From the sequence record PZ445442.1: a stretch of DNA of 64,000 bases; one strand, given 5' to 3'. Positions 36,266 through 46,768 of this stretch are shown piece after piece. Made by a program: the position numbers and the translations under genes. Origin of the DNA: a phage. Below the pieces are notes generated by a model, which was not told the DNA's origin, did not search any database, and worked only from the letters and a program-made list of their open reading frames with translations. Positions within the stretch are counted from its first letter, which is position 1, and each line of letters starts with the position of its first letter.

Positions 36266-37534
36266 TCAGCAACCACAACTTCCGTAGTGCTTAACTCGCT
36301 CGATAACTTCCGCTTGCTTACCTTTATTGTAAGGACGGGAGTTAGGACTGGAAAGATATCCAGACACTCTTCGGATCACTGAGATATATTGTTCATCGTG
36401 GCATCCGCACGCAGGGCAGCAGAACCCTTTAGCTGTTGCACTGAACTCACCAGAGAAACCACACTTGAGACATTTATCCACAGGTTGGTTAATACCAAAA
36501 TACATAATGTGTTTATACCCGAAGTCAACAAGAGCCTCTAAAGCATCCAGGTTGTTTTTCAGGTTAGGTGTCTCTACGTATCCGATGTTGCCACCAGAGG
36601 AGATCATAGCAAAACCTTCCTCATACTCCCACTTATCAAAAGGAGAGCTATTTATCCATACTGGCTGATGGAAACTGTTGGTGAGATATTCATGCTCGTG
36701 CTTCAACACTTCCGGATATTCACGATCCAGACAGGTTGCAGCTTTATAGCATAGACTCTCAGAAGGAGTGCCGTACAAGCTAAATGCTAGTCTACTTTCC
36801 TTCTTGTATCGCTCACAAGCATCTCTCATGTGCTGAAGGATTCTAAGAGCTAAAGCCTTGTCACCCTCTCTACCCAAAATCTGACAGGTTTCATACACAC
36901 CAATATACCCAATACTGATGGAAGCGTACCCGTCATAGAAGAGTTTATCAATACTCTCTTCAGGACCCAGGCGAGCAAGAGCGCCTTCACACCACATGAT
37001 AGGGTTCTGCCCTGCCTTGGTGCCTTTCAGACGGTTAACCCTTACAAGGTGAGCTTCATATGCCAAATCCAGATACTCGTCAAGAACGGCAAAGAAATCA
37101 ACACCTTCCGTCTTAGCTTTTGCCGCAATCATTGGTAGGTTAAGGCTAACAACACCCAAGTTGAATCTGCCGAGGTATTTCTCCTCACCTGTTTCCAAGT
37201 CATTGTATTTGCTAAGAAAACTCCGGCAACCCATGCTCGTTACTTTGCCATCTGTCGATCCTGTTACTTTACGATTTAGTGGAACAGAAACAAAGTCAGG
37301 ATAAATCCGCTCTGCAGAGCATTCCAGAGCTAATCGTTTCAAATCATAGTTAGGATCTCCAGGGTTCATGTTGACACCCTCTTCTAGGAAGAACAACACT
37401 TTAGGGAACACAGGTGTGATACGTTCTTCACCAAGACCCATTTTGTGGACTTTCAAGTAGTTTTTGGTAATCATTCTACCAAAGACTGAGGTGTCCAGAC
37501 CTAAACTTAATGTGATGAATGGAGTCTGCTGTCT
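36266..37534 (-). CDS. nrdD: anaerobic ribonucleotide reductase NrdD, exon 2 (C-terminal part; 5' boundary approximate)
   Basis: C-terminal Zn-binding cysteines and glycyl-radical motif RVSGY; frame stays open 93 nt upstream of annotated ATG to the HEG stop. Confidence 0.8.
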   Translation of the reverse strand, partial: RQQTPFITLSLGLDTSVFGRMITKNYLKVHKMGLGEERITPVFPKVLFFLEEGVNMNPGDPNYDLKRLALECSAERIYPDFVSVPLNRKVTGSTDGKVTSMGCRSFLSKYNDLETGEEKYLGRFNLGVVSLNLPMIAAKAKTEGVDFFAVLDEYLDLAYEAHLVRVNRLKGTKAGQNPIMWCEGALARLGPEESIDKLFYDGYASISIGYIGVYETCQILGREGDKALALRILQHMRDACERYKKESRLAFSLYGTPSESLCYKAATCLDREYPEVLKHEHEYLTNSFHQPVWINSSPFDKWEYEEGFAMISSGGNIGYVETPNLKNNLDALEALVDFGYKHIMYFGINQPVDKCLKCGFSGEFSATAKGFCCPACGCHDEQYISVIRRVSGYLSSPNSRPYNKGKQAEVIERVKHYGSCGC

Positions 37535-38325
37535 CCTCCCTGTGTTTCCACAGGGCCAGACTATCTCTTACTCTACTTCAATAAGATAATAACCCTTTAT
37601 TGTGAGATGCTTACCTTCGGCATTTCCTTCGATAGCCCTATGAACGTTACCTACGTTCAAGTTTAAGGCTTTTGCACAGGCATAGAGTGAAGGATATTCA
37701 CCCACCAAGGTTTTCCCTTTGTATGCCTGCACTTTCCTATAGCACTTACCTGGACAAAGTCCTGTTCGGAAAGCATGTCTCTTATTATCTTCCGGCAAAA
37801 CCCACTCTAGGTTAGACGGATGATCATTCAATGTATTGCCATCTTTATGATTCACTTCCCAGTTTTCAGGGTCTTCTGGGACATCCGGCAAACAATACAA
37901 GGCAACAACCCTTGAGGTTTGGATTCGAATCTTTTTACCTTTGTGGTTGAAAGAGTACATATAACGGCGTTTAACATGCTTGTTACCTTTTCCATAACCT
38001 CCCCACAATATTGGGTGTAGCATTCCACGTTTCCCGTATACGTTTCCAACCTCATCAATCACATAGTTTGATTCTTCACCATTAAGAATGATCTTTTTCA
38101 TAGAGCCTCTCCATTTCGAAGTTAGTATTTCAACTAACCCCTACACTACTTGGTTCAGAAATGTTTGTCAAGCATCTCTGCCTTTCGTTAGTCGTTACAA
38201 CCGTTCCAACTCCTGTAAGAACTAGTCACGGGATTGGCATAGCTTTCGCCTTAGCGTTCCCCGTTAGCCGGATTTACCGACCCCTCTTATGAGGTTAGGA
38301 GAGTTTTACAACGGCCAGTTTGTTA
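37535..38325 (-). mobile_element. putative group I intron in nrdD carrying an HNH homing endonuclease (boundaries approximate)
   Basis: Splits NrdD into two ORFs in the same orientation; GACUA (R-like, around 38223-38227), AAGAGAUAGUCU (S-like) right after HEG stop, CCCUGUG-GAAA-CACAGGG hairpin (P9-like), G before exon 2. Confidence 0.65.
37568..38101 (-). CDS. HNH homing endonuclease (HNH_3 type with NUMOD-like N-terminus and C-terminal HTH)
   Basis: WEVNHKDGNTLNDHPSNLEWVLPEDNKRH matches HNH_3 consensus; own RBS GGAGAGG. Confidence 0.85.
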   Translation of the reverse strand: MKKIILNGEESNYVIDEVGNVYGKRGMLHPILWGGYGKGNKHVKRRYMYSFNHKGKKIRIQTSRVVALYCLPDVPEDPENWEVNHKDGNTLNDHPSNLEWVLPEDNKRHAFRTGLCPGKCYRKVQAYKGKTLVGEYPSLYACAKALNLNVGNVHRAIEGNAEGKHLTIKGYYLIEVE

Positions 38326-39186
38326 ACCGTTGACAGAGGTTAACGTATTGATTTGATAGAGCAAAGTCTGCATGCTGTCAAATACATCTTTATCTGTCAT
38401 TTGCATTGCAACAGTTTCAGCATCCGGCAACCAATGTTCCTGGCAAAATTTAAGGTTCTTCTCATAGGTCGCTCCAGCATACTGTGCCAGATAATGATCA
38501 ATATGGCTCATAGTCTGACCTCCATATTGAGCACTAGCTACAGCACTAGAGATTTGGCTAAGGATTGTTGTTGCAACCCCTATTGACTTCGGCTTACTGA
38601 CATGGGCGTTACCAATGTTGAATCCGTTTTCCAACATATCTGGATAATTTACCAAACAACAGTTTGTTAACGGACTGATCAAGTAGTCAAGATCATGCAC
38701 ATGGATGAAGCCTTTATTGTGCTCTTCTGAAACACGGTCTGGCAGGATCTGTGTTGATGCAAGGTGTTTGCTAAGGATGCCTGCAAGCAGGTCACGATGA
38801 GTGTGTACATGATTAGTAGGCTTATTTGCGTTTTCTTTTGTAAATTCATCACAAGTTCGATCCAAGAAGCCACTAATATCTGCAAGCAGTTTTCCACCTG
38901 CCTCTCTGTTATTATCTCTTGTCTGTCTATACTGGATGTATTCTCTGGCTGCACATTTTAAACCCATATCCATAAGAGCATCTTCAACAAGGATATGGAT
39001 ATTTTTTACAGAGATCGTGCACTGGTCGGTTGGTAGATTGTTAGCCACAACTTCATTAACCGCGCAGGCGATCCGGTAAGCTTCTTCTTCAGTATGTCCA
39101 GACTCAAGTAAGGCGGACTCTGCCGCCTTGATCACCTTAATTCCGTTATAGAACTCTTCTCTACCGTCCCGTTTTACAACTTTCAC
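38323..39186 (-). CDS. nrdD: anaerobic ribonucleotide reductase NrdD, exon 1 (N-terminal ATP-cone part)
   Basis: MKVVKRDGREE ATP-cone start, HVHDLDY motif; stop lies just inside intron. Confidence 0.8.
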   Translation of the reverse strand: MKVVKRDGREEFYNGIKVIKAAESALLESGHTEEEAYRIACAVNEVVANNLPTDQCTISVKNIHILVEDALMDMGLKCAAREYIQYRQTRDNNREAGGKLLADISGFLDRTCDEFTKENANKPTNHVHTHRDLLAGILSKHLASTQILPDRVSEEHNKGFIHVHDLDYLISPLTNCCLVNYPDMLENGFNIGNAHVSKPKSIGVATTILSQISSAVASAQYGGQTMSHIDHYLAQYAGATYEKNLKFCQEHWLPDAETVAMQMTDKDVFDSMQTLLYQINTLTSVNG

Positions 39187-39464: not shown

Positions 39465-40553
39465 TTAAAACTCCCAAATTTCTTCTTCAGCGTCGTTAAC
39501 AGTTGTGTTGACGCGGTAGTCAGTGTTCGACATTTCTTGGTTCGCCGTCTGTTGTAATGAAGGTTTCATCCACACCTGCATAAACGGTAGCGGGTCCTTT
39601 GTTGGCGGCACAAAGTCTTTGTCGATGTCGTAGTAATCATAAATCGGTGAGCAGTTATAGTCAACCCACTCTTTAAGCAACGGTGAGTTAAGACCTATAA
39701 TCGCTCTTCCTTCGCTGAAAATATAGTCACTCCAACCGTACTCTTTGGTTCGTACTTCATCAAGAATCTCTTTTAACTCCCCCTTTATCTCAAGGAAGCT
39801 TTTCTCCCATGCGGGATCATTAAGCAAGATATCAATGATGGCAAAATCACCTTTCGAATGTAGCATTTCGTCAAGCATGATTTTTTGAACAAGCTGCGCC
39901 ACCTGAACAAAGATACCCTGTTCAGCTACTGCGAAAGTGCATGCAAAACTTGCAATAAACTCAATACTTTCCAGAGCTAAAAGTGCAAAAAGCGCTCTAA
40001 GAATGCATTTCCGCACAACATCTTCTTCAACACTAGAAGGATCCAGGCGGTATTTTGCACCAATAACCTCAAGCTCTTGCATGTATTTGACAATAACGCC
40101 GGATCTGCTCAGAACGTTTTGGTTTTCCTGAATCTCTTCTATAATCTCACGGGCATTGGGGAGGCATTGTCTAACAATCTCTGAGTAAGTTAGTGCGTGA
40201 AGAACTTCAATCTCTGACTGTTTCATCAATAGAGTGAAAAGCTCACTATTAGTGATGAATGGTGAAAAGAGGCAGATGATCGATCTTGCCGCAACGCTAT
40301 CAGCCTCCCATTGCCACATCAAGGTCTGCACCATCACGTCATAAGTTGACTTTGAGCATGTTACAAAATCTGAAATAGATTGCGACAAATCCACTTCATC
40401 CTCTGCCCAATCTTGCTCTTTTTGTTTTTTGTATAGTTCAAACAGTTGTGGATATTTTTTGTTGATAGAGTCGTACATACCCATTTGCTGTCCCAGAAAC
40501 AGCGGATAGTCACCAGTTTTATGAGCGGTGTTCTCAGCATTAAATACAGCCAT
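39465..40553 (-). CDS. nrdB: ribonucleotide reductase class Ia small subunit
   Basis: Di-iron ligand motifs (EVLHA, ESIEFIASF, DEMLHS), C-terminal acidic tail; start moved to MAVFNAENT with GAGGTAG RBS. Confidence 0.85.
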   Translation of the reverse strand: MAVFNAENTAHKTGDYPLFLGQQMGMYDSINKKYPQLFELYKKQKEQDWAEDEVDLSQSISDFVTCSKSTYDVMVQTLMWQWEADSVAARSIICLFSPFITNSELFTLLMKQSEIEVLHALTYSEIVRQCLPNAREIIEEIQENQNVLSRSGVIVKYMQELEVIGAKYRLDPSSVEEDVVRKCILRALFALLALESIEFIASFACTFAVAEQGIFVQVAQLVQKIMLDEMLHSKGDFAIIDILLNDPAWEKSFLEIKGELKEILDEVRTKEYGWSDYIFSEGRAIIGLNSPLLKEWVDYNCSPIYDYYDIDKDFVPPTKDPLPFMQVWMKPSLQQTANQEMSNTDYRVNTTVNDAEEEIWEF

Positions 40554-40591
40554 TATTCTACCTCTAAAATGGGGCCGAAGCCCCTTTAAAA

Positions 40592-42907
40592 TTATAGTGC
40601 ACAGCTTTCGCAATACGGATCTTCAACTGAACTATCTGCAATCAAAGGATAGTTCTTTCTGGTTTCATCTTCAGCCTGTTTCTTGGCATGAAGTTCCTCT
40701 GCCAAGGAGTCACCAGCACCAACCCTAGAGTTTAAATAATACCATGTCTTCATCCCGAATTTAGTGGCACGGATAAGGTACCCTAACTGCTCCTTCATTG
40801 AAATTTTACCATCTTTCAACTTGGTGTAGTCTATGTATAAATCCGCGCTGATTGCCTGACCTGTGAATTTTTGAATCACGGCATACATATCGATCATGTC
40901 GTTAGTATCAACGTCCCAAGCCGAGGTGTAATACTCTTTCAACTCATCATAGTCAGGAACGATAAACAGCACCTGCCCTTGTGGCGACTTTTTAAAGATA
41001 ATGTGCTCACGGACAGGATAAACCCCGTTAGTGGTGTTTGTTGCCAGCGAAGAGCTTTCATTAGGCATATATGCTTCAAGAACGCTATTACGTAGCCCAC
41101 CATTCTCAATGATTTCTTTACGTAACCCTTCCCAATCCTGTTTAAGAGAAGGATCTTTCACCACGCTATCGACCTCTTTGTTATAGGTGTCGATTGGTAA
41201 CCAACCTTCTGGATATTTTGTTTTATGCATCCACTCGCAGACACCACGCTCTTTTGCCAACCGTAAACTTGCCTTATGCAAGCTGTAGCTGTGAAGTTCT
41301 GCAAGATCGTGAACGAGCTGTTTACTTTCAGGAGACCCGTAAGTAACCTTGTGGCTGGCAATAAAATGTGCAACATTGGTAAGGCCAACCCCGATGGATC
41401 TGCGTTTTTTAACTGTGCTTTCCATATTTTCATACGGATATGTCATGATTTCCATAACATTGTCAATCATAAGCACCGTATAGTATGCAACATCCTCATA
41501 CTCCTCTGGAGTAACCCTCCCAGCTACAAGAGATGACAGGAAGCACAATGCAACCTCTCCATCATCAGCATCGTACTTGAAGATATTACGCATATCTGAA
41601 TAGCCTTTTGTCGGGAGGGCTATTTCTGCACACAGGTTGCTTGAATAGATCACATCTTTAAAAGGTGTATGTCTATTCATCTCATCTGTCCAGTATACGT
41701 ACAGCCTTCCCACCTCAGTGCGCTGCGTGATCAGTTCAACAGCAAGATCTCTGGCTCGGATCCATGTTTTAGGAATACTGTCATCTTTAGCAATACGATC
41801 AACCTCTGCATCAAACTCCTCCATAGACATGGTGAAGATACCCTCATGCAGTTGAGGCGCGTGCTTATAAGAAACAAGCATCCAATCTAAATTCTTAGCC
41901 ACACGGTTGATAAACGACCTATTAATACCGATGGAGTAGTCCATGGTGTTGATTCTTTTTGAAGCAACAGTCATAGGGTTTCTCAAACGGATTAGCTCAT
42001 CAATCTGCGGGTCCAGTGCAAGGAATGATACTGTTGCAGAACCACCACGTGATTGTTGTCTGTTCTCCTTAACCCCAGCATCAATACCTCGATAATATGG
42101 AATCTTACCCATATGTTTAATAGTGTTACCACGAACACCATCGCCTGCAGATCTTGAGGATAAGTAGTAGCCGATACCTGCTTGATTAACCGTCATTGTG
42201 TACGCAACTTCACGTGCCACACCAATAGATTTTGCTGTATCGTCAGCTTTTATTACACAACAAGATGCATATCCTGTCTTACCTGTGCGCAGCCCGTTTA
42301 AGTACGGTGTCGGGGCATTGATCTTTAAGTCGGACAGATAAGTGTATAATTTTACAACATCGTTGATACGACGTTCTTTCGGCATATTCTTCATGACAGC
42401 CATTGCTATCCCCATAAACATCATCTGGGGAGATTCAAACAAGGTGTCTTTAAGAGTATCCTTGATCCCATATTTGTCGCGAAACTGTTTAAGGACTGCA
42501 TAGCCATAACCGAGATCTTTACTGTGGTCAATAACAGCGTCTAAAGTGTTTAGCTCGGTAAAGCTATAACCCATATCCTCCCAATAACCTTTCTCAACCA
42601 TGTCATTGTAAAATGATGGTAAGGAAGGGATCTTTGTAAACCCTCCAAAAGCCTCTTTATAGATCTGACCAATAAGAACACGACCAGCCATACAGGAATG
42701 TGCTTCGTCTTTACGGCTAACACAAGAGTCTATAATAGCTTGGTTAACTTCTTTGGTTGTACATCCATCATACAACCGCTTGTAGGCATCCAGTGCAATA
42801 TGTGACCAATTGCCGTTACCATCGTCACCGAAAATAGCTGCCTTATTTAAACGTTCTGGATCGAATGCCACTTCACATCCGTTGCTTTTAATTACCTTGG
42901 TGATCAA
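40592..42907 (-). CDS. nrdA: ribonucleotide reductase class Ia large subunit
   Basis: ATP-cone N-terminus, NLCAEIALPT active-site motif, C-terminal CESCAL. Confidence 0.9.
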   Translation of the reverse strand: MITKVIKSNGCEVAFDPERLNKAAIFGDDGNGNWSHIALDAYKRLYDGCTTKEVNQAIIDSCVSRKDEAHSCMAGRVLIGQIYKEAFGGFTKIPSLPSFYNDMVEKGYWEDMGYSFTELNTLDAVIDHSKDLGYGYAVLKQFRDKYGIKDTLKDTLFESPQMMFMGIAMAVMKNMPKERRINDVVKLYTYLSDLKINAPTPYLNGLRTGKTGYASCCVIKADDTAKSIGVAREVAYTMTVNQAGIGYYLSSRSAGDGVRGNTIKHMGKIPYYRGIDAGVKENRQQSRGGSATVSFLALDPQIDELIRLRNPMTVASKRINTMDYSIGINRSFINRVAKNLDWMLVSYKHAPQLHEGIFTMSMEEFDAEVDRIAKDDSIPKTWIRARDLAVELITQRTEVGRLYVYWTDEMNRHTPFKDVIYSSNLCAEIALPTKGYSDMRNIFKYDADDGEVALCFLSSLVAGRVTPEEYEDVAYYTVLMIDNVMEIMTYPYENMESTVKKRRSIGVGLTNVAHFIASHKVTYGSPESKQLVHDLAELHSYSLHKASLRLAKERGVCEWMHKTKYPEGWLPIDTYNKEVDSVVKDPSLKQDWEGLRKEIIENGGLRNSVLEAYMPNESSSLATNTTNGVYPVREHIIFKKSPQGQVLFIVPDYDELKEYYTSAWDVDTNDMIDMYAVIQKFTGQAISADLYIDYTKLKDGKISMKEQLGYLIRATKFGMKTWYYLNSRVGAGDSLAEELHAKKQAEDETRKNYPLIADSSVEDPYCESCAL

Positions 42908-43212
42908 TTTGCTTCCTCCACTTCACTAACGTATTTATCAAGGCAGGTATCAGTATCTTGCTGGATAAAAGTATCCTCTTCTACAGAGATATTTATAATT
43001 TTACCTGTATACTCGTCATAATAGACATCATCATACATTTTAATATCGTTTGTCAGGCCATTGAACCAAAGCCAACCAACATACTCTGCCCGACTTGCAA
43101 AACCAAGATCCTTCCACTTGGAGTTATGACTCATCTTCACCACCTTAGCTTTCAATACCGAATAATTTTTCCAGGCGATGCAGATCTTCAAAATTGAAAG
43201 GTTCATCAACAA
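42904..43212 (-). CDS. hypothetical protein
   Basis: 102-aa ORF overlapping nrdA start. Confidence 0.45.
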   Translation of the reverse strand: MLMNLSILKICIAWKNYSVLKAKVVKMSHNSKWKDLGFASRAEYVGWLWFNGLTNDIKMYDDVYYDEYTGKIINISVEEDTFIQQDTDTCLDKYVSEVEEAN

Positions 43213-43645
43213 TATGAATATCTTCAGCCTTTTCAGATTGTTTTGTATACTTTCTTACATTAACACGATCCTCTACAGGGATATCATACGGGAGATCTTG
43301 AACAAGCATTGCCTCACCAGGTGCTTTATCTACATCTAAAATATCTACACCGTTATACATTTGTGGGTATCTAAAGTCTGCACGCATGACACCAGCAAAT
43401 ACATCTGCCTTTCGATAATGTGTTGGCTTATTTTTGCATCGAACGTTTTTTCCACGAAGAACATCAATACTTTTTAAATCAAACCCTACGGCAAAGAGTG
43501 CAGCTCGGAGACCGTTTCGTGTGCGAACGTTAAACCCGGGGACGGTAGATAGAAAATCTAAAGTAACTGAAATAAATGTCTTTTTAGGAATCATAACATT
43601 ACTCATATCTGTCTCCATTTCTGGCTCACCAACAAAGTGAGCCAT
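43145..43645 (-). CDS. hypothetical protein
   Basis: 166-aa ORF. Confidence 0.45.
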   Translation of the reverse strand: MAHFVGEPEMETDMSNVMIPKKTFISVTLDFLSTVPGFNVRTRNGLRAALFAVGFDLKSIDVLRGKNVRCKNKPTHYRKADVFAGVMRADFRYPQMYNGVDILDVDKAPGEAMLVQDLPYDIPVEDRVNVRKYTKQSEKAEDIHIVDEPFNFEDLHRLEKLFGIES

Positions 43646-43704
43646 TATTATAGATTATCTAATACTATTAGTCAACACAAAAGTTACCTATCGCTGTGAT
43701 AGGA

Positions 43705-44688
43705 TTAACCTTTCACGAAGTGGTTATTAAGCAGTTGTCTGTGCTGAACCCACCCACAAAAGTTGGCAGACCAGAATTTACCATCACGGTCTTGATGGGT
43801 TACACCTTCCTGCCAAGTACTGATGTCTTGTGTGATTTCACATGAAGACAGGTAGTAGTTTAAACGTTCCATTGCGTTATCGTGATCCATAGGTGTTGCC
43901 TGGTGCTCGTAAGGGCTTGCATGAATACGATCCCCACCAATCAATTTTTTAGCCACACTATCTGCCTTTTCAAACGTGCTGTCAATATTTCGATAAGATA
44001 CTTGTGCACAGCAACTAGCACTGATAGACAGAGCTTCTTTAGTATCGAGAATGCAGAGCTTTCCTTCTGTGTCACGTACAGCGTAGTTAAACTCTCCGTC
44101 CAAATAAACGTGCTCTACATATGGGGTGTGCCATTGACCCGGTTTAAGGATTTCAGGAGTGCTATTCTCAAGAGCCTCCCACATACAATTAGCTAACATC
44201 TGAATCGTAGGATCCGCATCGTGCCAGCAACGGAGGTGGAAAAAATTATTCCACTCGGTGCTTGTTACAACTGTTTTCATGCGCTGGAACGGCTCCACTA
44301 AGCGGTTACATACTTGCTTATGGTAACCAGCAAGGGCGAACTTCTCTGCATGCCAAGCGGCGTTTTTTGCAGCTTCTTTCCAAAACTCTTCAGGAGTTAG
44401 CTCCATGTCAGTGTACTCTACACGGATCTTTTGATCGTGTTCCCCACCATCTTCCATTCCTCGCTTATTTACACCGAAGCGAACTGGCATTGCCGGATTC
44501 TCCACAATCTGTTGCAGCATCTTGCCGACAGGTACTGCACGGGAAGACATGGCGTTTCGGCTGAACACTCGGTGCGTCATAAGCTCTGAGTGAATAATTC
44601 GAGGATACTCTAGTTCAAAAGTGGTGATACGCTTACCTTTCTCGGAAATGCTGTCAGCAATAATCTTTGCAGTGCACAGTTTTAGCAT
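43705..44688 (-). CDS. thyX: ThyX-like (flavin-dependent thymidylate synthase family) protein
   Basis: SELMTHRVFSRNAMSSRAV aligns with ThyX signature HELVRHRHASYSQQSQRYV (first Arg replaced by Thr). Confidence 0.55.
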   Translation of the reverse strand: MLKLCTAKIIADSISEKGKRITTFELEYPRIIHSELMTHRVFSRNAMSSRAVPVGKMLQQIVENPAMPVRFGVNKRGMEDGGEHDQKIRVEYTDMELTPEEFWKEAAKNAAWHAEKFALAGYHKQVCNRLVEPFQRMKTVVTSTEWNNFFHLRCWHDADPTIQMLANCMWEALENSTPEILKPGQWHTPYVEHVYLDGEFNYAVRDTEGKLCILDTKEALSISASCCAQVSYRNIDSTFEKADSVAKKLIGGDRIHASPYEHQATPMDHDNAMERLNYYLSSCEITQDISTWQEGVTHQDRDGKFWSANFCGWVQHRQLLNNHFVKG

Positions 44689-44888
44689 TATTTAGCTCTC
44701 CTTGTTTTAATTTTGGAAATTTCGTCTGGGTTTATGTTGGCCTTAAATGCAAGGTATCTGTTGAACATGTCAGAGCACATATCTTGGGTGATCCTAGAGG
44801 CATACACTAGCTTACCTCCTAGATCATACACCTCTAGCCAGTCACCGTATCTGACTACAGGATCGCCACCTTTAGAACATCTGCCCAT
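44688..44888 (-). CDS. hypothetical small protein
   Basis: 66-aa ORF. Confidence 0.4.
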   Translation of the reverse strand: MGRCSKGGDPVVRYGDWLEVYDLGGKLVYASRITQDMCSDMFNRYLAFKANINPDEISKIKTRRAK

Positions 44889-44889
44889 T

Positions 44890-45483
44890 TCAAATACCTT
44901 CTAAAAATTTTCCTATTTTATACCAGCTATTAGCGGTATAGTCAACACTGACCTTTAACTCCTCGAATTGCTCATAAGGCGTATCTTTTAGGATTTTAAT
45001 AACTTCAGGTCGTGAAGCGAATTGGTTCAGGTATTCATGCCTGTCGTCAATTATAACATCTACAGCCACATTCCCTTTGAAATGTGTGGCGTAGAAGCCG
45101 TGGCCCTGGGTGTGATCGTCCAGATCCATAAAATCACTGGTCCAACGCTTTAAGAACCTTGATTTAGATGCAAGGTGACCTTTCTTGCATACCGAGATAA
45201 ATGCAAGCTTGTGACCACGAGCCACCAAATCTTTCATAACCTCAATAGCCCCCTCTTCAGGCTTAAGGAAGTCGTAGAGGAACGGATCACTCCAGAAATC
45301 AAAAGGTCCTATGATGTTTTCTTTGGGACGATCAGGCCAATACTTTGACAGATCGTAATACATTAGCCCATTAGATGGTTTAGCCACTGTCTTACTGGCT
45401 GGACCATACAAACGCTCCAACCACTCCCACCATGCTGTTCCTGAATCTACCAGTGTCAGATCTACATCAATTCCGATTAACAT
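44890..45483 (-). CDS. HAD-family 5'(3')-deoxyribonucleotidase-like phosphatase
   Basis: N-terminal HAD motif I IGIDVDLTL (DxDxT), later IIDDR. Confidence 0.5.
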   Translation of the reverse strand: MLIGIDVDLTLVDSGTAWWEWLERLYGPASKTVAKPSNGLMYYDLSKYWPDRPKENIIGPFDFWSDPFLYDFLKPEEGAIEVMKDLVARGHKLAFISVCKKGHLASKSRFLKRWTSDFMDLDDHTQGHGFYATHFKGNVAVDVIIDDRHEYLNQFASRPEVIKILKDTPYEQFEELKVSVDYTANSWYKIGKFLEGI

Positions 45484-46091
45484 TCTTCTTGGGCCTCTTT
45501 AGCATCAATATACTTGCACACAATCTCCGATGCACACTCCCAAGGTGCACCTTCAGGGTTTACAACATCAAACTCAACCCCTTTTATTCCGTTCTTTTCC
45601 AGACTTAGATAGGTTCTGGAATCATTTCCCCAGTCATATCCTACACGGTGAATACGGAACAACAACAGATCTCCACCTGTGCTGTATGCGTACTCGCTAA
45701 GGCATGCCAGCTCCTCTTTGAATCCCCCATCGGAGTAAACAATAACCCCTTTACCTTCAGGGAAATCTTTCTTCAAAGATGCGACTGCGGCTTTACCGAA
45801 AGCATCTTCACCAAAGATAGGTTTAATCAGATTTTCACTACAATGGATCATCCATTCTCGCGGAGAAACATGCTTGCCGTCTATCATTAAGAAAGGGCAA
45901 GGCTCTTCTTTGTAGTGGCGGTCATAAAGTGCATTCCAGAGTTGAGGAGTTACACCAGCTGCCTTAATTGCCACACTGAAGAGCATTTCCTTAACCTCAC
46001 GGTGGTGTGAGTTAGGAATAGCTTCCAACAAGAGATCTGCAATGTGATCCTTACCACTGCTGGGTGGGGCGTTAAGAACAATAATATCCAT
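45477..46091 (-). CDS. deoxynucleoside monophosphate kinase-like P-loop protein
   Basis: MDIIVLNAPPSSGKD resembles T4 gp1 dNMP kinase N-terminus (LSGVKRSGKD). Confidence 0.5.
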   Translation of the reverse strand: MDIIVLNAPPSSGKDHIADLLLEAIPNSHHREVKEMLFSVAIKAAGVTPQLWNALYDRHYKEEPCPFLMIDGKHVSPREWMIHCSENLIKPIFGEDAFGKAAVASLKKDFPEGKGVIVYSDGGFKEELACLSEYAYSTGGDLLLFRIHRVGYDWGNDSRTYLSLEKNGIKGVEFDVVNPEGAPWECASEIVCKYIDAKEAQEEC

Positions 46092-46294
46092 TAAAAACCT
46101 CCGTGGTATTCTTCAACTGCATCAATAATACTTTTACACTTATCTACCAGCTCGTTAGCCACTACAGCATCGTCTTCCCAAACAGCTTCCTCGATCTGAT
46201 CAAGCAATGATCGCATCTTACCCATCATTTCTGGGATAAAGTCTTCTGAAAAGCTGTCTGGAATTGTTAACTTTAGTGTCATTGCGTTCTCCAA
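46091..46294 (-). CDS. hypothetical small protein
   Basis: 67-aa ORF. Confidence 0.4.
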   Translation of the reverse strand: MENAMTLKLTIPDSFSEDFIPEMMGKMRSLLDQIEEAVWEDDAVVANELVDKCKSIIDAVEEYHGGF

Positions 46295-46309
46295 TCATAC
46301 TATGCGTTA

Positions 46310-46768
46310 TTAGAAGTTTGTTTTTACACGTCCCTTTTCATCAACCTCGTTGTTGGCTAGAAGCGTTACAAAGTCTGTGAAACGGACATGAAGAACTCTT
46401 TTCTTATCAAGGTATCCTAAAGCCACCCCTGAGAAATTTAGCATCAAAGGGGCTAAAGAAGCTCTGGCACTGAAATGCTGTTGTTCTACCCTTCCAACAC
46501 CCTTAGTGTAGGATGGGTTAAGATTGTAAGTTCTGAATCCCAGTTTTGTTGGAGCTTTAGAATTAAAAACAACTTTATAGCGTTTCTTACTCAACTTATG
46601 CTCCAGGATAAGCATTCCCTTATCACCCTTGATAAGTTGAAAATCTGTAAAGTGCTCTTTTAATACGAAAGGTAGTGCCAGTCCCATCGCCTGCCCCCTT
46701 TGTACCGCTGTCTCACCAAAAGCTTTTGCATCAGTAAGTTCTTTGGTCAAGTCTATGCTTTTGATCAT
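46310..46768 (-). CDS. hypothetical protein
   Basis: 152-aa ORF. Confidence 0.45.
   Translation of the reverse strand: MIKSIDLTKELTDAKAFGETAVQRGQAMGLALPFVLKEHFTDFQLIKGDKGMLILEHKLSKKRYKVVFNSKAPTKLGFRTYNLNPSYTKGVGRVEQQHFSARASLAPLMLNFSGVALGYLDKKRVLHVRFTDFVTLLANNEVDEKGRVKTNF

What the first reader, a model, noticed from the sequence alone, without database searches (positions are those of the whole stretch)
43705..44688. ThyX-family protein with altered signature (THR instead of RHR), 327 aa
The ThyX motif is recognisable but the first arginine is replaced and the protein is longer than typical ThyX. It could be a divergent thymidylate synthase or a pyrimidine-modifying enzyme (phage base hypermodification pathways use thymidylate-synthase-like enzymes). 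The neighbouring nucleotidase and dNMP kinase fit a nucleotide-modification route.
Basis: partly seen in the sequence, partly recalled or inferred. Interest (0 to 1): 0.45.

Follow-up and report, generated by a model that had tools for sequence, protein, structure and literature searches.

The report
Rearranged phage ThyX-type thymidylate synthase
This is the long-annotated "thymidylate synthase" gene of an rV5-like E. coli phage, and it most likely still makes the DNA building block dTMP, but its large, untested phage family lacks two residues thought essential in textbook ThyX and carries one active-site module at a different place in the chain.

Summary
A 327-aa ORF lies at 43705-44688 on the minus strand. 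It has T38-H39-R40...S48-S49-R50 where canonical ThyX has RHR...SxR. The window is a Vequintavirus (rV5-like coliphage), and identical genes are already annotated "thymidylate synthase" (rV5 gp106).

- **Family:** the protein passes Pfam Thy1 but fails NCBI's ThyX equivalog model (39.5 against 87.9 bits). It represents at least 5,050 50%-identity clusters, seen in rV5-like, ICP1, Pakpunavirus, N4-like and phiCbK-like phages.
- **Lost residues:** Thr replaces Arg78 in 96% of relatives, and Ala replaces the "strictly conserved" Tyr91 in all of them.
- **Kept residues:** the equivalents of His79, Asn85, Ser88, Arg90, Arg147, Asn169 and Arg174.
- **Moved module:** the Ser30/His53 helical module (HxSPxEH) lies after the core, at aa 222-263.
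- **Inteins:** relatives carry inteins at five sites, all inside these motifs.
- **Context:** ribonucleotide reductase genes lie nearby here and in three other phage groups. No ThyA is annotated. Vequintavirinae are exceptionally restriction-sensitive.

Best reading: a divergent, rearranged flavin-dependent thymidylate synthase (about 0.7). A base-modification role is not supported but not excluded.

The parts
43705..44688 (-). ThyX-like coding sequence, 327 aa plus stop (TAA at 43705-43707).
44155..44646 (-). ThyX core, aa 15-178. It corresponds to T. maritima ThyX residues 55-199 and holds R129 (=Arg147), N148 (=Asn169) and R153 (=Arg174).
   Evidence: Profile-profile hhalign, probability 89%, E 2.6e-6. 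Pfam profile positions 60-191 match aa 23-179. These residues are invariant or nearly so in 134 representatives.
44536..44577 (-). Altered ThyX signature T38-H39-R40-V-F-S43-R-N45-A-M-S48-S49-R50-A51. The canonical form is R78-H79-R80-x-x-S83-x-N85-E86-x-S88-G89-R90-Y91.
   Evidence: Sequence, ungapped alignment. Family composition: T38 129/134 (K3, R2); H39 134/134; R40 112/134; S48 133/134; R50 134/134; A51 134/134.
44395..44529 (-). Family-specific beta-rich insertion, aa 54-98. It contains the motif FGxNxxG77-M78 and has no counterpart in canonical ThyX.
   Evidence: Strands at 72-74, 80-83, 88-90 and 95-97 in the model. This stretch is gapped against ThyX. G77 and M78 are 135/135 conserved.
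43900..44025 (-). Relocated helical module, aa 222-263 (ISASCCAQVSYR...IHASPYEHQ). It corresponds to T. maritima ThyX residues 21-60, with S231=Ser30 and H256=His53.
   Evidence: hhalign probability 84-92%, E 8e-6 to 8e-7. Score 46.1, against a best of 20.3 in 30 column shuffles and 15.6 for the reversed alignment. Helices 216-229, 239-251 and 258-262. S231 134/134, H256 134/134, H262 132/134.
43708..43899 (-). C-terminal tail, aa 264-327. It carries the conserved motif G-x-T-H...W-S-x-N-x-x-G-W-x-Q-x-R317. Its role is unknown.
   Evidence: R317 134/134, Q315 131/134, N309 128/134. A similarity of 'GWVQHR' to ThyX 'RQWFRHR' is not significant (E 0.29).
44698..44703 (-). Shine-Dalgarno sequence AAGGAG, 9 nt upstream of the ATG.
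   Evidence: Read directly from the sequence.
44688..44888 (-). Upstream 66-aa ORF of unknown function (PHROG 4903). Its stop codon overlaps the ThyX-like start by 1 nt (TAATG), which suggests translational coupling.
   Evidence: Annotated as a hypothetical protein in phage EmilHeitz.
44890..45483 (-). HAD-superfamily 5'(3')-deoxyribonucleotidase-like protein, 197 aa, with an N-terminal DxDxT motif (IDVDLT).
   Evidence: Pfam NT5C 27.1 bits against a cut-off of 24.8. PHROG 420. No PDB sequence match.
45477..46091 (-). P-loop dNMP-kinase-like protein, 204 aa.
   Evidence: PHROG 139 'deoxynucleoside monophosphate kinase', E 4e-44. Annotated 'putative P-loop NTPase' in EmilHeitz.
39465..42907 (-). 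Class I ribonucleotide reductase genes nrdA (40592-42907) and nrdB (within 39465-40613), downstream in the same gene array.
   Evidence: ORFs. Annotation of the near-identical phage EmilHeitz.
43647..43703 (-). Short hairpin directly after the stop codon (43703-43687), followed by a near-consensus sigma-70-type promoter TTGACT-17-TATAAT (43675-43647) that faces the next gene.
   Evidence: Consensus scan: 11 of 12 matches, the best site in 42800-48800.

Best explanation
The gene most likely encodes a flavin-dependent thymidylate synthase of a divergent clade seen here mostly in phages. The proposed reaction is reductive methylation of dUMP to dTMP using FAD, NADPH and methylene-tetrahydrofolate. 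This would add to the host's ThyA during infection, alongside the phage's ribonucleotide reductases and dNMP kinase.

Shown here:
- The fold is ThyX.
- The equivalents of His79, Ser83, Asn85, Ser88, Arg90, Arg147, Asn169 and Arg174 are conserved across the family.
- The Ser30/His53 module (flavin and folate contacts in T. maritima ThyX) is conserved but lies after the core in the chain.
- Arg78 and Tyr91 are replaced by Thr and Ala throughout the family.

Inferred, not shown:
- The enzyme binds FAD and makes dTMP.
- Family-specific invariant residues (K124, R317, H187, and the motifs G77-M78 and W-H-x-P-Y) take over the roles of Arg78 and Tyr91. In canonical ThyX, Arg78 contacts dUMP and stabilises the reduced flavin, and Tyr91 is the proposed general acid.
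- The relocated module occupies the same place in three dimensions as in canonical ThyX.
For: - **Sequence:** Pfam Thy1 is above its gathering score. Profile-profile matches link the core and the relocated module to canonical ThyX, and the module match holds against shuffle controls.
- **Residue conservation in 134 representatives at 37-53% identity:** H39, S48, R50, R129, N148, R153, S231 and H256 are at least 99% conserved.
- **Roles of the canonical residues:** PMC3498832 and PMC11940539.
- **Inteins:** five insertion sites in relatives fall exactly in these motifs. From my own knowledge, inteins usually sit in the catalytic motifs of functional nucleotide-metabolism enzymes.
- **Context:** the gene lies in one array with nrdAB, nrdDG and glutaredoxin here. 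It is adjacent to nrdBA in Pakpunavirus, within 4 kb of a ribonucleotide reductase gene in ICP1, and near a dCTP deaminase gene in an N4-like phage. The gene annotated thyX in Rhodovirinae, one of which (phage R7L) is a 36%-identical relative of this protein, co-occurs with dCMP deaminase and has dN/dS 0.18 (PMC11934525).
- **No alternative synthase:** no ThyA in the window and none annotated in phage EmilHeitz, whose copy of this gene is 100% identical in DNA (annotation).
- **DNA looks unmodified:** Vequintavirinae are exceptionally susceptible to restriction-modification systems, and XbaI cuts rV5 DNA.
Against:
- The protein fails NCBI's curated ThyX equivalog threshold (39.5 against 87.9 bits). 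Direct sequence searches do not reach solved ThyX structures.
- Two residues described as critical in T. maritima ThyX are absent throughout the family. Tyr91 mutation slows flavin oxidation about 1000-fold, and Arg78 contacts dUMP and stabilises reduced FAD.
- The Arg80 equivalent is only 84% conserved.
- Model coordinates could not be inspected, so the position of the relocated module and the candidate compensating residues are not verified.
- Restriction sensitivity does not exclude a simple modification such as 5-hydroxymethyl-dU.
Confidence: 0.7

Rival explanations
1. The protein is a ThyX-fold enzyme that makes a modified pyrimidine nucleotide rather than dTMP. One possibility: with the Tyr91 and Arg78 roles missing, the exocyclic-methylene intermediate is captured by water to give 5-hydroxymethyl-dUMP. 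Another is that it acts on a different nucleotide. The neighbouring nucleotidase would then remove the competing normal nucleotide, and the kinase would phosphorylate the modified one.
Against: The arginines that read uracil (R50, R153) and the flavin and folate contacts (H256, S231, N45) are kept. The annotation of a near-identical genome lists no hypermodification genes such as a 5-hmdU DNA kinase, an amino-acid or glycosyl transferase acting on DNA, or a dTTP-excluding enzyme set. Vequintavirinae are exceptionally restriction-sensitive and XbaI cuts rV5 DNA. The nucleotidase and kinase are not annotated next to the gene in other clades, whereas ribonucleotide reductase or deaminase genes are. 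Known thymidine hypermodification pathways start from ThyA-family enzymes (PMC8989533).
Confidence: 0.1
2. The protein is a degenerate or non-catalytic ThyX relic, for example a nucleotide- or flavin-binding regulator, kept for a reason other than thymidylate synthesis.
For: Canonical Arg78 and Tyr91 are lost. The host E. coli already has ThyA (my own knowledge).
Against: About 25 positions are at least 97% conserved across representatives that share only 37-53% identity, including the substrate and cofactor contacts. There are at least 5,050 cluster representatives. dN/dS is 0.18 in one clade. Inteins persist at five motif sites. The gene is consistently placed among nucleotide-synthesis genes.
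Confidence: 0.05
3. The C-terminal half is a remnant of a second ThyX copy rather than a relocated module. On this reading the protein arose by tandem duplication followed by partial deletions (a '1.5-copy' protein). The Ser30/His53 module then sits where a neighbouring subunit's module sits in canonical ThyX, which would change the oligomeric state. The enzyme activity could still be thymidylate synthesis.
For: In T. maritima ThyX, His53 is supplied by a different monomer from the rest of the active site. The tail ends in 'GWVQHR', which recalls 'RQWFRHR'. An invariant R317 aligns with Arg80, whose first-copy equivalent R40 is variable. From my own knowledge, permutation by duplication is the usual route to reordered domains.
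Against: The tail match is not significant (E 0.29). The N-terminal and C-terminal halves show no detectable similarity to each other (E 0.06). No coordinates or multimer model were available.
Confidence: 0.15

Closest known systems
Canonical flavin-dependent thymidylate synthase ThyX (Pfam PF02511, TIGR02170; e.g. T. maritima TM0449, PBCV-1 A674R, M. tuberculosis ThyX)
   Different: Thr replaces Arg78 and Ala replaces Tyr91. The Arg80 equivalent is variable. The Ser30/His53 helical module comes after the core instead of before it. There is an extra 45-aa beta insertion with an invariant Gly-Met, and a conserved 64-aa tail. The length is 327 aa, against 216-270 aa for solved ThyX chains. The protein scores below the equivalog cut-off. 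No member has been tested experimentally, as far as I could find.
PolB of Streptomyces cacaoi, a ThyX-fold UMP/dUMP methylase (PDB 4p5a)
   Different: PolB sits in an antibiotic (polyoxin) biosynthesis cluster (my own knowledge). This gene sits among phage DNA-precursor genes. Sequence identity is only 18%.
ThyA-family dUMP/dCMP hydroxymethylases of phages with modified DNA (SPO1 gp29, T4 gp42; the entry step of thymidine hypermodification, PMC8989533)
   Same: Phage enzymes that add a one-carbon unit from folate to C5 of a pyrimidine nucleotide. They are often found near nucleotidases and kinases.
   Different: The fold and chemistry are unrelated (ThyA type, no flavin). Those phages carry downstream modification genes and have restriction-resistant DNA. 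Neither applies here.
Intein-bearing ThyX genes of mycobacteriophages (the paper PMC5050341 turned up; that it reports inteins in ThyX is from my own knowledge, I did not open it)
   Same: Relatives of this protein also carry inteins with LAGLIDADG or HNH endonucleases inside conserved motifs.
   Different: The gene in this window has no intein. The insertion sites lie in this family's own versions of the motifs, including the relocated H|ASPFEH.

Membership tests
ThyX / flavin-dependent thymidylate synthase | Match to the Pfam Thy1 domain (PF02511) above its gathering score | tested here: met
   38.1 bits against 24.8. Only profile positions 60-191 are matched, by aa 23-179.
ThyX / flavin-dependent thymidylate synthase | Match to the NCBIfam equivalog TIGR02170 (thyX) above its curated cut-off | tested here: not met
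   39.5 bits against a cut-off of 87.9.
ThyX / flavin-dependent thymidylate synthase | ThyX three-dimensional fold | tested here: met
ThyX / flavin-dependent thymidylate synthase | Signature RHRxxSxxxxSxR: first Arg (T. maritima Arg78) | tested here: not met
   Thr38. T in 129/134 relatives, K in 3, R in 2.
ThyX / flavin-dependent thymidylate synthase | Signature: His79, Arg80, Ser83, Ser88 and Arg90 | tested here: met
   H39, R40, S43, S48 and R50 are present. In the family: H 134/134, R40 112/134, S43 125/134, S48 133/134, R50 134/134.
ThyX / flavin-dependent thymidylate synthase | 'Strictly conserved' active-site Tyr after the SxR (Tyr91) | tested here: not met
   Ala51, 134/134 in the family. 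Tyr91 is invariant in the canonical alignment A3. Its role is described in PMC11940539.
ThyX / flavin-dependent thymidylate synthase | Further nucleotide and flavin contacts: Arg147, Asn169, Arg174 | tested here: met
   R129, N148 and R153 by profile alignment. Each is at least 134/135 conserved.
ThyX / flavin-dependent thymidylate synthase | Ser30 and His53 (HxSPxEH) module that contacts flavin and folate | tested here: met
   Present as S231 and H256-A-S-P-Y-E-H262. hhalign E 8e-7 with controls. Conserved in at least 132/134.
ThyX / flavin-dependent thymidylate synthase | Canonical order of elements along the chain (Ser30/His53 module before the RHR core) | tested here: not met
   The core is aa 15-178 and the module is aa 222-263. 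The N-terminal strand joins the second strand by a direct hairpin.
ThyX / flavin-dependent thymidylate synthase | FAD binding, NADPH oxidation, and dUMP to dTMP conversion | not testable with these tools
   Requires biochemistry or a thyA complementation test.
ThyX / flavin-dependent thymidylate synthase | Homotetramer with active sites built from three subunits | not testable with these tools
ThyX / flavin-dependent thymidylate synthase | Placement among deoxynucleotide-synthesis genes, and absence of ThyA | tested here: met
   nrdAB, nrdDG and glutaredoxin lie nearby. Ribonucleotide reductase or dCTP deaminase genes lie nearby in three other clades. No ThyA in the window or in the annotation of a near-identical genome.
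Phage thymidine hypermodification pathway | Entry enzyme of the ThyA (classical thymidylate synthase) family | tested here: not met
   The fold is ThyX, not ThyA. No ThyA homologue is in the window. The pathway definition is from PMC8989533.
Phage thymidine hypermodification pathway | Downstream modification genes (5-hmdU DNA kinase, transferases, PLP or radical-SAM enzymes) | tested here: not met
   None is annotated in the near-identical phage EmilHeitz. Only DNA methyltransferases are listed. This rests on annotation, not on an exhaustive profile search.
Phage thymidine hypermodification pathway | Virion DNA protected from restriction enzymes or carrying non-canonical thymine | not testable with these tools
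   The literature points the other way. Vequintavirinae are 'exceptionally susceptible' to restriction-modification systems, and XbaI digests rV5 DNA. I found no nucleoside mass spectrometry.

The most novel reading that the evidence does not exclude
This large clade, seen here mostly in phages, may be a distinct structural class of flavin-dependent pyrimidine C5 transferase. It has lost the canonical Arg78 and Tyr91. The chain is reordered, so the His53/Ser30 module follows the core. It has its own invariant elements (G77-M78, W-H-x-P-Y, K124, R317).

On this reading it either reaches dTMP through a different catalytic arrangement and possibly a different oligomer, or it releases a different product such as 5-hydroxymethyl-dUMP. 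The stated probability is for a substantively different catalytic or quaternary solution. A different product alone is about 0.1.
Probability: 0.4. Interest if true: 0.6.

Novelty: new variant of a known kind. Interest (0 to 1): 0.38.

Why it matters
ThyX is studied as an antibiotic target and as a model for flavin-mediated methylene transfer. Current mechanisms give key roles to Arg78 (dUMP contact and stabilisation of reduced FAD) and Tyr91 (general acid). Here is a very large natural family, with at least 5,050 clusters at 50% identity, that lacks both residues and carries the His53 module at a different point in the chain. The phages that carry it include several therapeutic and model phages (rV5-like, ICP1, Pakpunavirus, N4-like).

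If these proteins are active thymidylate synthases, they are a natural experiment on which residues are really required. If they are not, thousands of database annotations are wrong, and the thymidine supply or DNA chemistry of these phages needs another look. For this particular window the practical message is modest. The gene is the known rV5 gp106 homologue, and the altered motif is a family trait, not a local oddity.

Tried and rejected
- **Direct sequence search of the PDB.** The protein found nothing. A close-homologue profile gave only E of about 1 to T. maritima ThyX. Profile-profile comparison and fold search were needed.
- **Tandem duplications.** I first took the 520-680-aa relatives for duplicated ThyX genes that would support a duplication origin. 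They are intein-containing genes.
- **Internal duplication.** The N-terminal and C-terminal halves show no similarity (E 0.06). The tail 'GWVQHR' against 'RQWFRHR' is not significant (E 0.29).
- **AlphaFold database search.** The afdb50 library was unavailable.
- **ThyA search across the full relative genome.** The fetched loci were not all present in the script sandbox. For the rest of the genome I relied on the annotation tables.
- **Neighbour proteins.** The nucleotidase and kinase have no PDB sequence relatives.
- **Literature.** Ten searches found no functional test of this clade and no description of the rearrangement.
- **Rejected: local mutation or pseudogene.** The Thr is conserved in 96% of relatives.
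- **Rejected: a hypermodification operon.** See the first rival explanation.
Full report
**1. What is there**

The window holds one ORF at 43705..44688 on the minus strand: ATG start, 327 codons, TAA stop. An AAGGAG ribosome-binding site lies 9 nt upstream. The start codon overlaps the stop of a 66-aa upstream ORF by one base.

The DNA is 100% identical to 12 of the listed phage records (slur16, slur12, PDX, nomine, EmilHeitz and others) and at least 90% identical to 121 records. The window is therefore a Vequintavirus. In those records the gene is annotated 'thymidylate synthase' or 'FAD-dependent thymidylate synthase'. In the rV5 genome paper it is gp106 (PMC3606486).

**2. Family membership by sequence**

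- Pfam Thy1 scores 38.1 bits against a gathering score of 24.8. Only profile positions 60-191 are matched, by aa 23-179.
- PHROG 85 'thymidylate synthase' matches at E 5e-113.
- NCBI's curated equivalog model for ThyX (TIGR02170) scores 39.5 bits against a cut-off of 87.9, so the protein does not qualify as an equivalog.
- The protein alone finds no solved structure by sequence. A profile of close homologues reaches T. maritima ThyX only at E of about 1.
- The family is very large. The exhaustive search found 5,050 representatives of 50%-identity clusters, 2,010 of them at E no greater than 1e-30. Among phage records, 1,036 match, including rV5-like phages, Vibrio ICP1, Pseudomonas Pakpunavirus, N4-like Schitoviridae, and Caulobacter, Cellulophaga and Flavobacterium phages.

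**3. Fold**

**4. The signature and the active-site residues**

I confirmed that my recalled T. maritima ThyX sequence is identical to PDB 1kq4/1o26. I then built a canonical alignment, A3, and ran profile-profile comparisons. The core aligns as aa 15-178 to T. maritima residues 55-199 (probability 89%, E 2.6e-6). There is no gap across the signature, which gives this mapping:

| T. maritima ThyX | This protein |
|---|---|
| Arg78 | T38 |
| His79 | H39 |
| Arg80 | R40 |
| Ser83 | S43 |
| Asn85 | N45 |
| Glu86 | A46 |
| Ser88 | S48 |
| Gly89 | S49 |
| Arg90 | R50 |
| Tyr91 | A51 |
| Arg147 | R129 |
| Asn169 | N148 |
| Arg174 | R153 |

Conservation in 134 representatives that share 37-53% identity with the query:

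| Position | Count |
|---|---|
| T38 | 129 (plus K 3, R 2) |
| H39 | 134 |
| R40 | 112 |
| S48 | 133 |
| R50 | 134 |
| A51 | 134 |
| R129 | 134 |
| N148 | 134 |
| R153 | 135/135 |

So Thr-for-Arg is the family consensus, not a local mutation. A second canonical residue, Tyr91, is replaced by Ala in every member.

The literature makes both losses notable. Arg78, Arg80, Ser88 and Arg90 form direct hydrogen bonds with dUMP (PMC3498832). Arg78 also faces N1/C2=O of the reduced flavin. Tyr91 and Ser88 are called 'strictly conserved' and critical, and Tyr91 mutation slows flavin oxidation about 1000-fold (PMC11940539).

**5. A reordered chain**

Canonical ThyX begins with a strand, then helices H1-H3. 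These carry Ser30, which hydrogen-bonds the flavin C4=O, and His53 in the motif HxSPxEH, which stacks on flavin or folate and comes from a different monomer. Then follows the strand that leads into the RHR helix.

In this protein the first strand (aa 6-15) joins the second (aa 20-29) by a direct hairpin, so the helices are missing there. They reappear after the core. The stretch aa 222-263 (ISASCCAQVSYRNIDSTFEKADSVAKKLIGGDRIHASPYEHQ) aligns to T. maritima residues 21-60 with probability 84-92% and E 8e-6 to 8e-7. The score is 46.1, against a best of 20.3 in 30 column shuffles and 15.6 for the reversed alignment. The model places helices at 216-229, 239-251 and 258-262. S231 (=Ser30) is 134/134, H256 (=His53) is 134/134 and H262 is 132/134.

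The family also has elements with no canonical counterpart. There is a beta-rich insertion (aa 54-98) with G77-M78 invariant in 135/135. There is a W186-H187-x-P189-Y190 motif with H and P invariant, a K124 at 134/134, and a tail ending in R317 at 134/134.

I could not inspect coordinates. Whether the relocated module sits where the canonical one does, in the same subunit or mimicking a neighbour, remains an inference. I found no significant internal duplication.

**6. Inteins in relatives**

Sixteen relatives of 520-680 aa are not duplications. Each is a single gene interrupted by an insertion of about 180-340 aa. Pfam scans of four of them found Intein_splicing plus HNH domains in P0146 and LAGLIDADG_3 domains in P0155 and P0230, but no intein or endonuclease domain in P0131. 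I call the other twelve inteins from the flanking sequence pattern alone. There are five insertion sites:

- between H33 and S34;
- just after T38-H39-R40;
- between S48 and S49;
- just after R153-x-H;
- between H256 and A257, in the relocated HASPFEH motif.

From my own knowledge, inteins typically occupy the catalytic motifs of functional replication and nucleotide-metabolism enzymes. I take this as independent support that these motifs, including the relocated one, are functional.

**7. Context**

The gene lies in a co-directional minus-strand array. Upstream of it, in order of transcription, are:

- a DnaQ-like exonuclease;
- a methyltransferase-like protein;
- two small ORFs;
- a dNMP-kinase-like P-loop protein;
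- a HAD/NT5C-type nucleotidase;
- the 66-aa ORF.

Downstream of the ThyX-like gene are:

- two small genes;
- nrdA and nrdB;
- glutaredoxin;
- nrdD and nrdG.

A hairpin and a near-consensus sigma-70 promoter lie directly downstream of the gene.

In other clades the recurring annotated neighbours are nucleotide-synthesis genes, not the nucleotidase or kinase. Pakpunavirus PaGz-1 has nrdB and nrdA adjacent. ICP1 has a ribonucleotide reductase gene within 4 kb. The N4-like phage Moo19 has a dCTP deaminase gene 2 kb upstream. The gene annotated thyX in Rhodovirinae occurs only together with dCMP deaminase and has dN/dS 0.18 (PMC11934525). One of those phages, R7L, carries a 36%-identical relative of this protein. 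Pakpunavirus Adele is described as carrying ribonucleotide reductase, dCMP deaminase and ThyX as a thymidine-production set (PMC12846349). ThyA and ThyX anticorrelate in jumbo phages (PMC7824862). No ThyA-like sequence is in the window, and none is annotated in phage EmilHeitz, whose copy of this gene is identical.

**8. Is the DNA modified?**

There are no direct data. Indirectly, Vequintavirinae are 'exceptionally susceptible' to restriction-modification systems, unlike phages with modified bases (PMC8594841). XbaI digests rV5 DNA. The curated annotation lists DNA methyltransferases only. Known thymidine hypermodification starts from ThyA-family hydroxymethylases (PMC8989533). This argues against hypermodification. 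It does not exclude a simple change such as 5-hydroxymethyl-dU.

**9. Verdict**

The best explanation is a divergent, reordered flavin-dependent thymidylate synthase (confidence about 0.7). The fold, the residue conservation and the reordering are shown here. FAD binding, dTMP formation and compensation for Arg78 and Tyr91 are inferred.

The modification-enzyme reading is about 0.1, and a non-catalytic relic about 0.05. A further question is whether the C-terminal half is a remnant of a second copy (about 0.15). That concerns origin and architecture rather than activity, so it is compatible with the best explanation and the figures are not meant to sum to 1.

As a gene, this is already annotated and ordinary for its phage group. 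As an enzyme family, it is an uncharacterised variant of ThyX that fails several defining sequence features. That is worth a modest amount of specialist attention.

Noticed in passing
Proteins P0126, P0131, P0137, P0146, P0150, P0155, P0161, P0180, P0200, P0209, P0214, P0215, P0217, P0230, P0249, P0266 (relatives; not in the window): Sixteen relatives of 520-680 aa carry an insertion of about 180-340 aa at one of five sites, each inside a family-invariant motif, including the relocated H|ASPFEH motif. Pfam found intein-splicing plus HNH domains in one of four scanned and LAGLIDADG domains in two more.
   Followed up: partly
window 43647-43703 (-): A near-consensus sigma-70 promoter (TTGACT-17-TATAAT, 11/12) and a 6-bp hairpin lie in the 59-nt gap after the ThyX-like gene. 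The -10 box ends 1 nt before the ATG listed at 43645. The PHROG match of that 166-aa ORF starts at residue 14, so its true start is probably Met14 (ATG at 43606), which is preceded by GGAGA.
   Followed up: partly
window 36266-39186 (-): The anaerobic ribonucleotide reductase gene nrdD is split by an insertion that carries a homing-endonuclease ORF (37568-38101). The near-identical phage EmilHeitz annotates it as a two-piece joined CDS. The DNA polymerase of that phage is annotated the same way.
   Followed up: no
window 46731-47579 (-): A 282-aa protein contains an NPPF motif (FIGNPPFGKN). It matches PHROG 5172 (unknown function) strongly and DNA methyltransferase PHROGs weakly, and it gets no Pfam hit. 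It is one of four putative N6-adenine methyltransferases annotated in this phage type, alongside a Dcm-like C5-cytosine methyltransferase.
   Followed up: no
window 39465-40613 (-): The mechanical ORF for nrdB starts at a TTG and gives 382 aa, overlapping nrdA by 22 nt. The relative's annotation is 362 aa, so the real start is probably the internal Met ('MAVFNAENT').
   Followed up: no
BFVD entries A0A4Y5TVX3 and A0A4Y5TVY4 (Escherichia phage vB_EcoM-ECP26): In this relative the ThyX-like gene is deposited as two proteins of 245 and 97 aa, both 96% identical to the query. This is probably a frameshift or a sequencing error.
   Followed up: no
BFVD entry A0A127AWA5 (Bacillus phage SP-15): SP-15 has a 413-aa 'thymidylate synthetase' with weak ThyX-fold similarity to the model (E 0.08). 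From my own knowledge, this phage has hypermodified thymine. It could be worth checking whether ThyX-fold enzymes ever feed modification pathways.
   Followed up: no
window 44688-44888 (-): A conserved 66-aa ORF (PHROG 4903, unknown function) has a stop codon that overlaps the ThyX-like start codon by one base, which suggests translational coupling. Its role is unknown.
   Followed up: no
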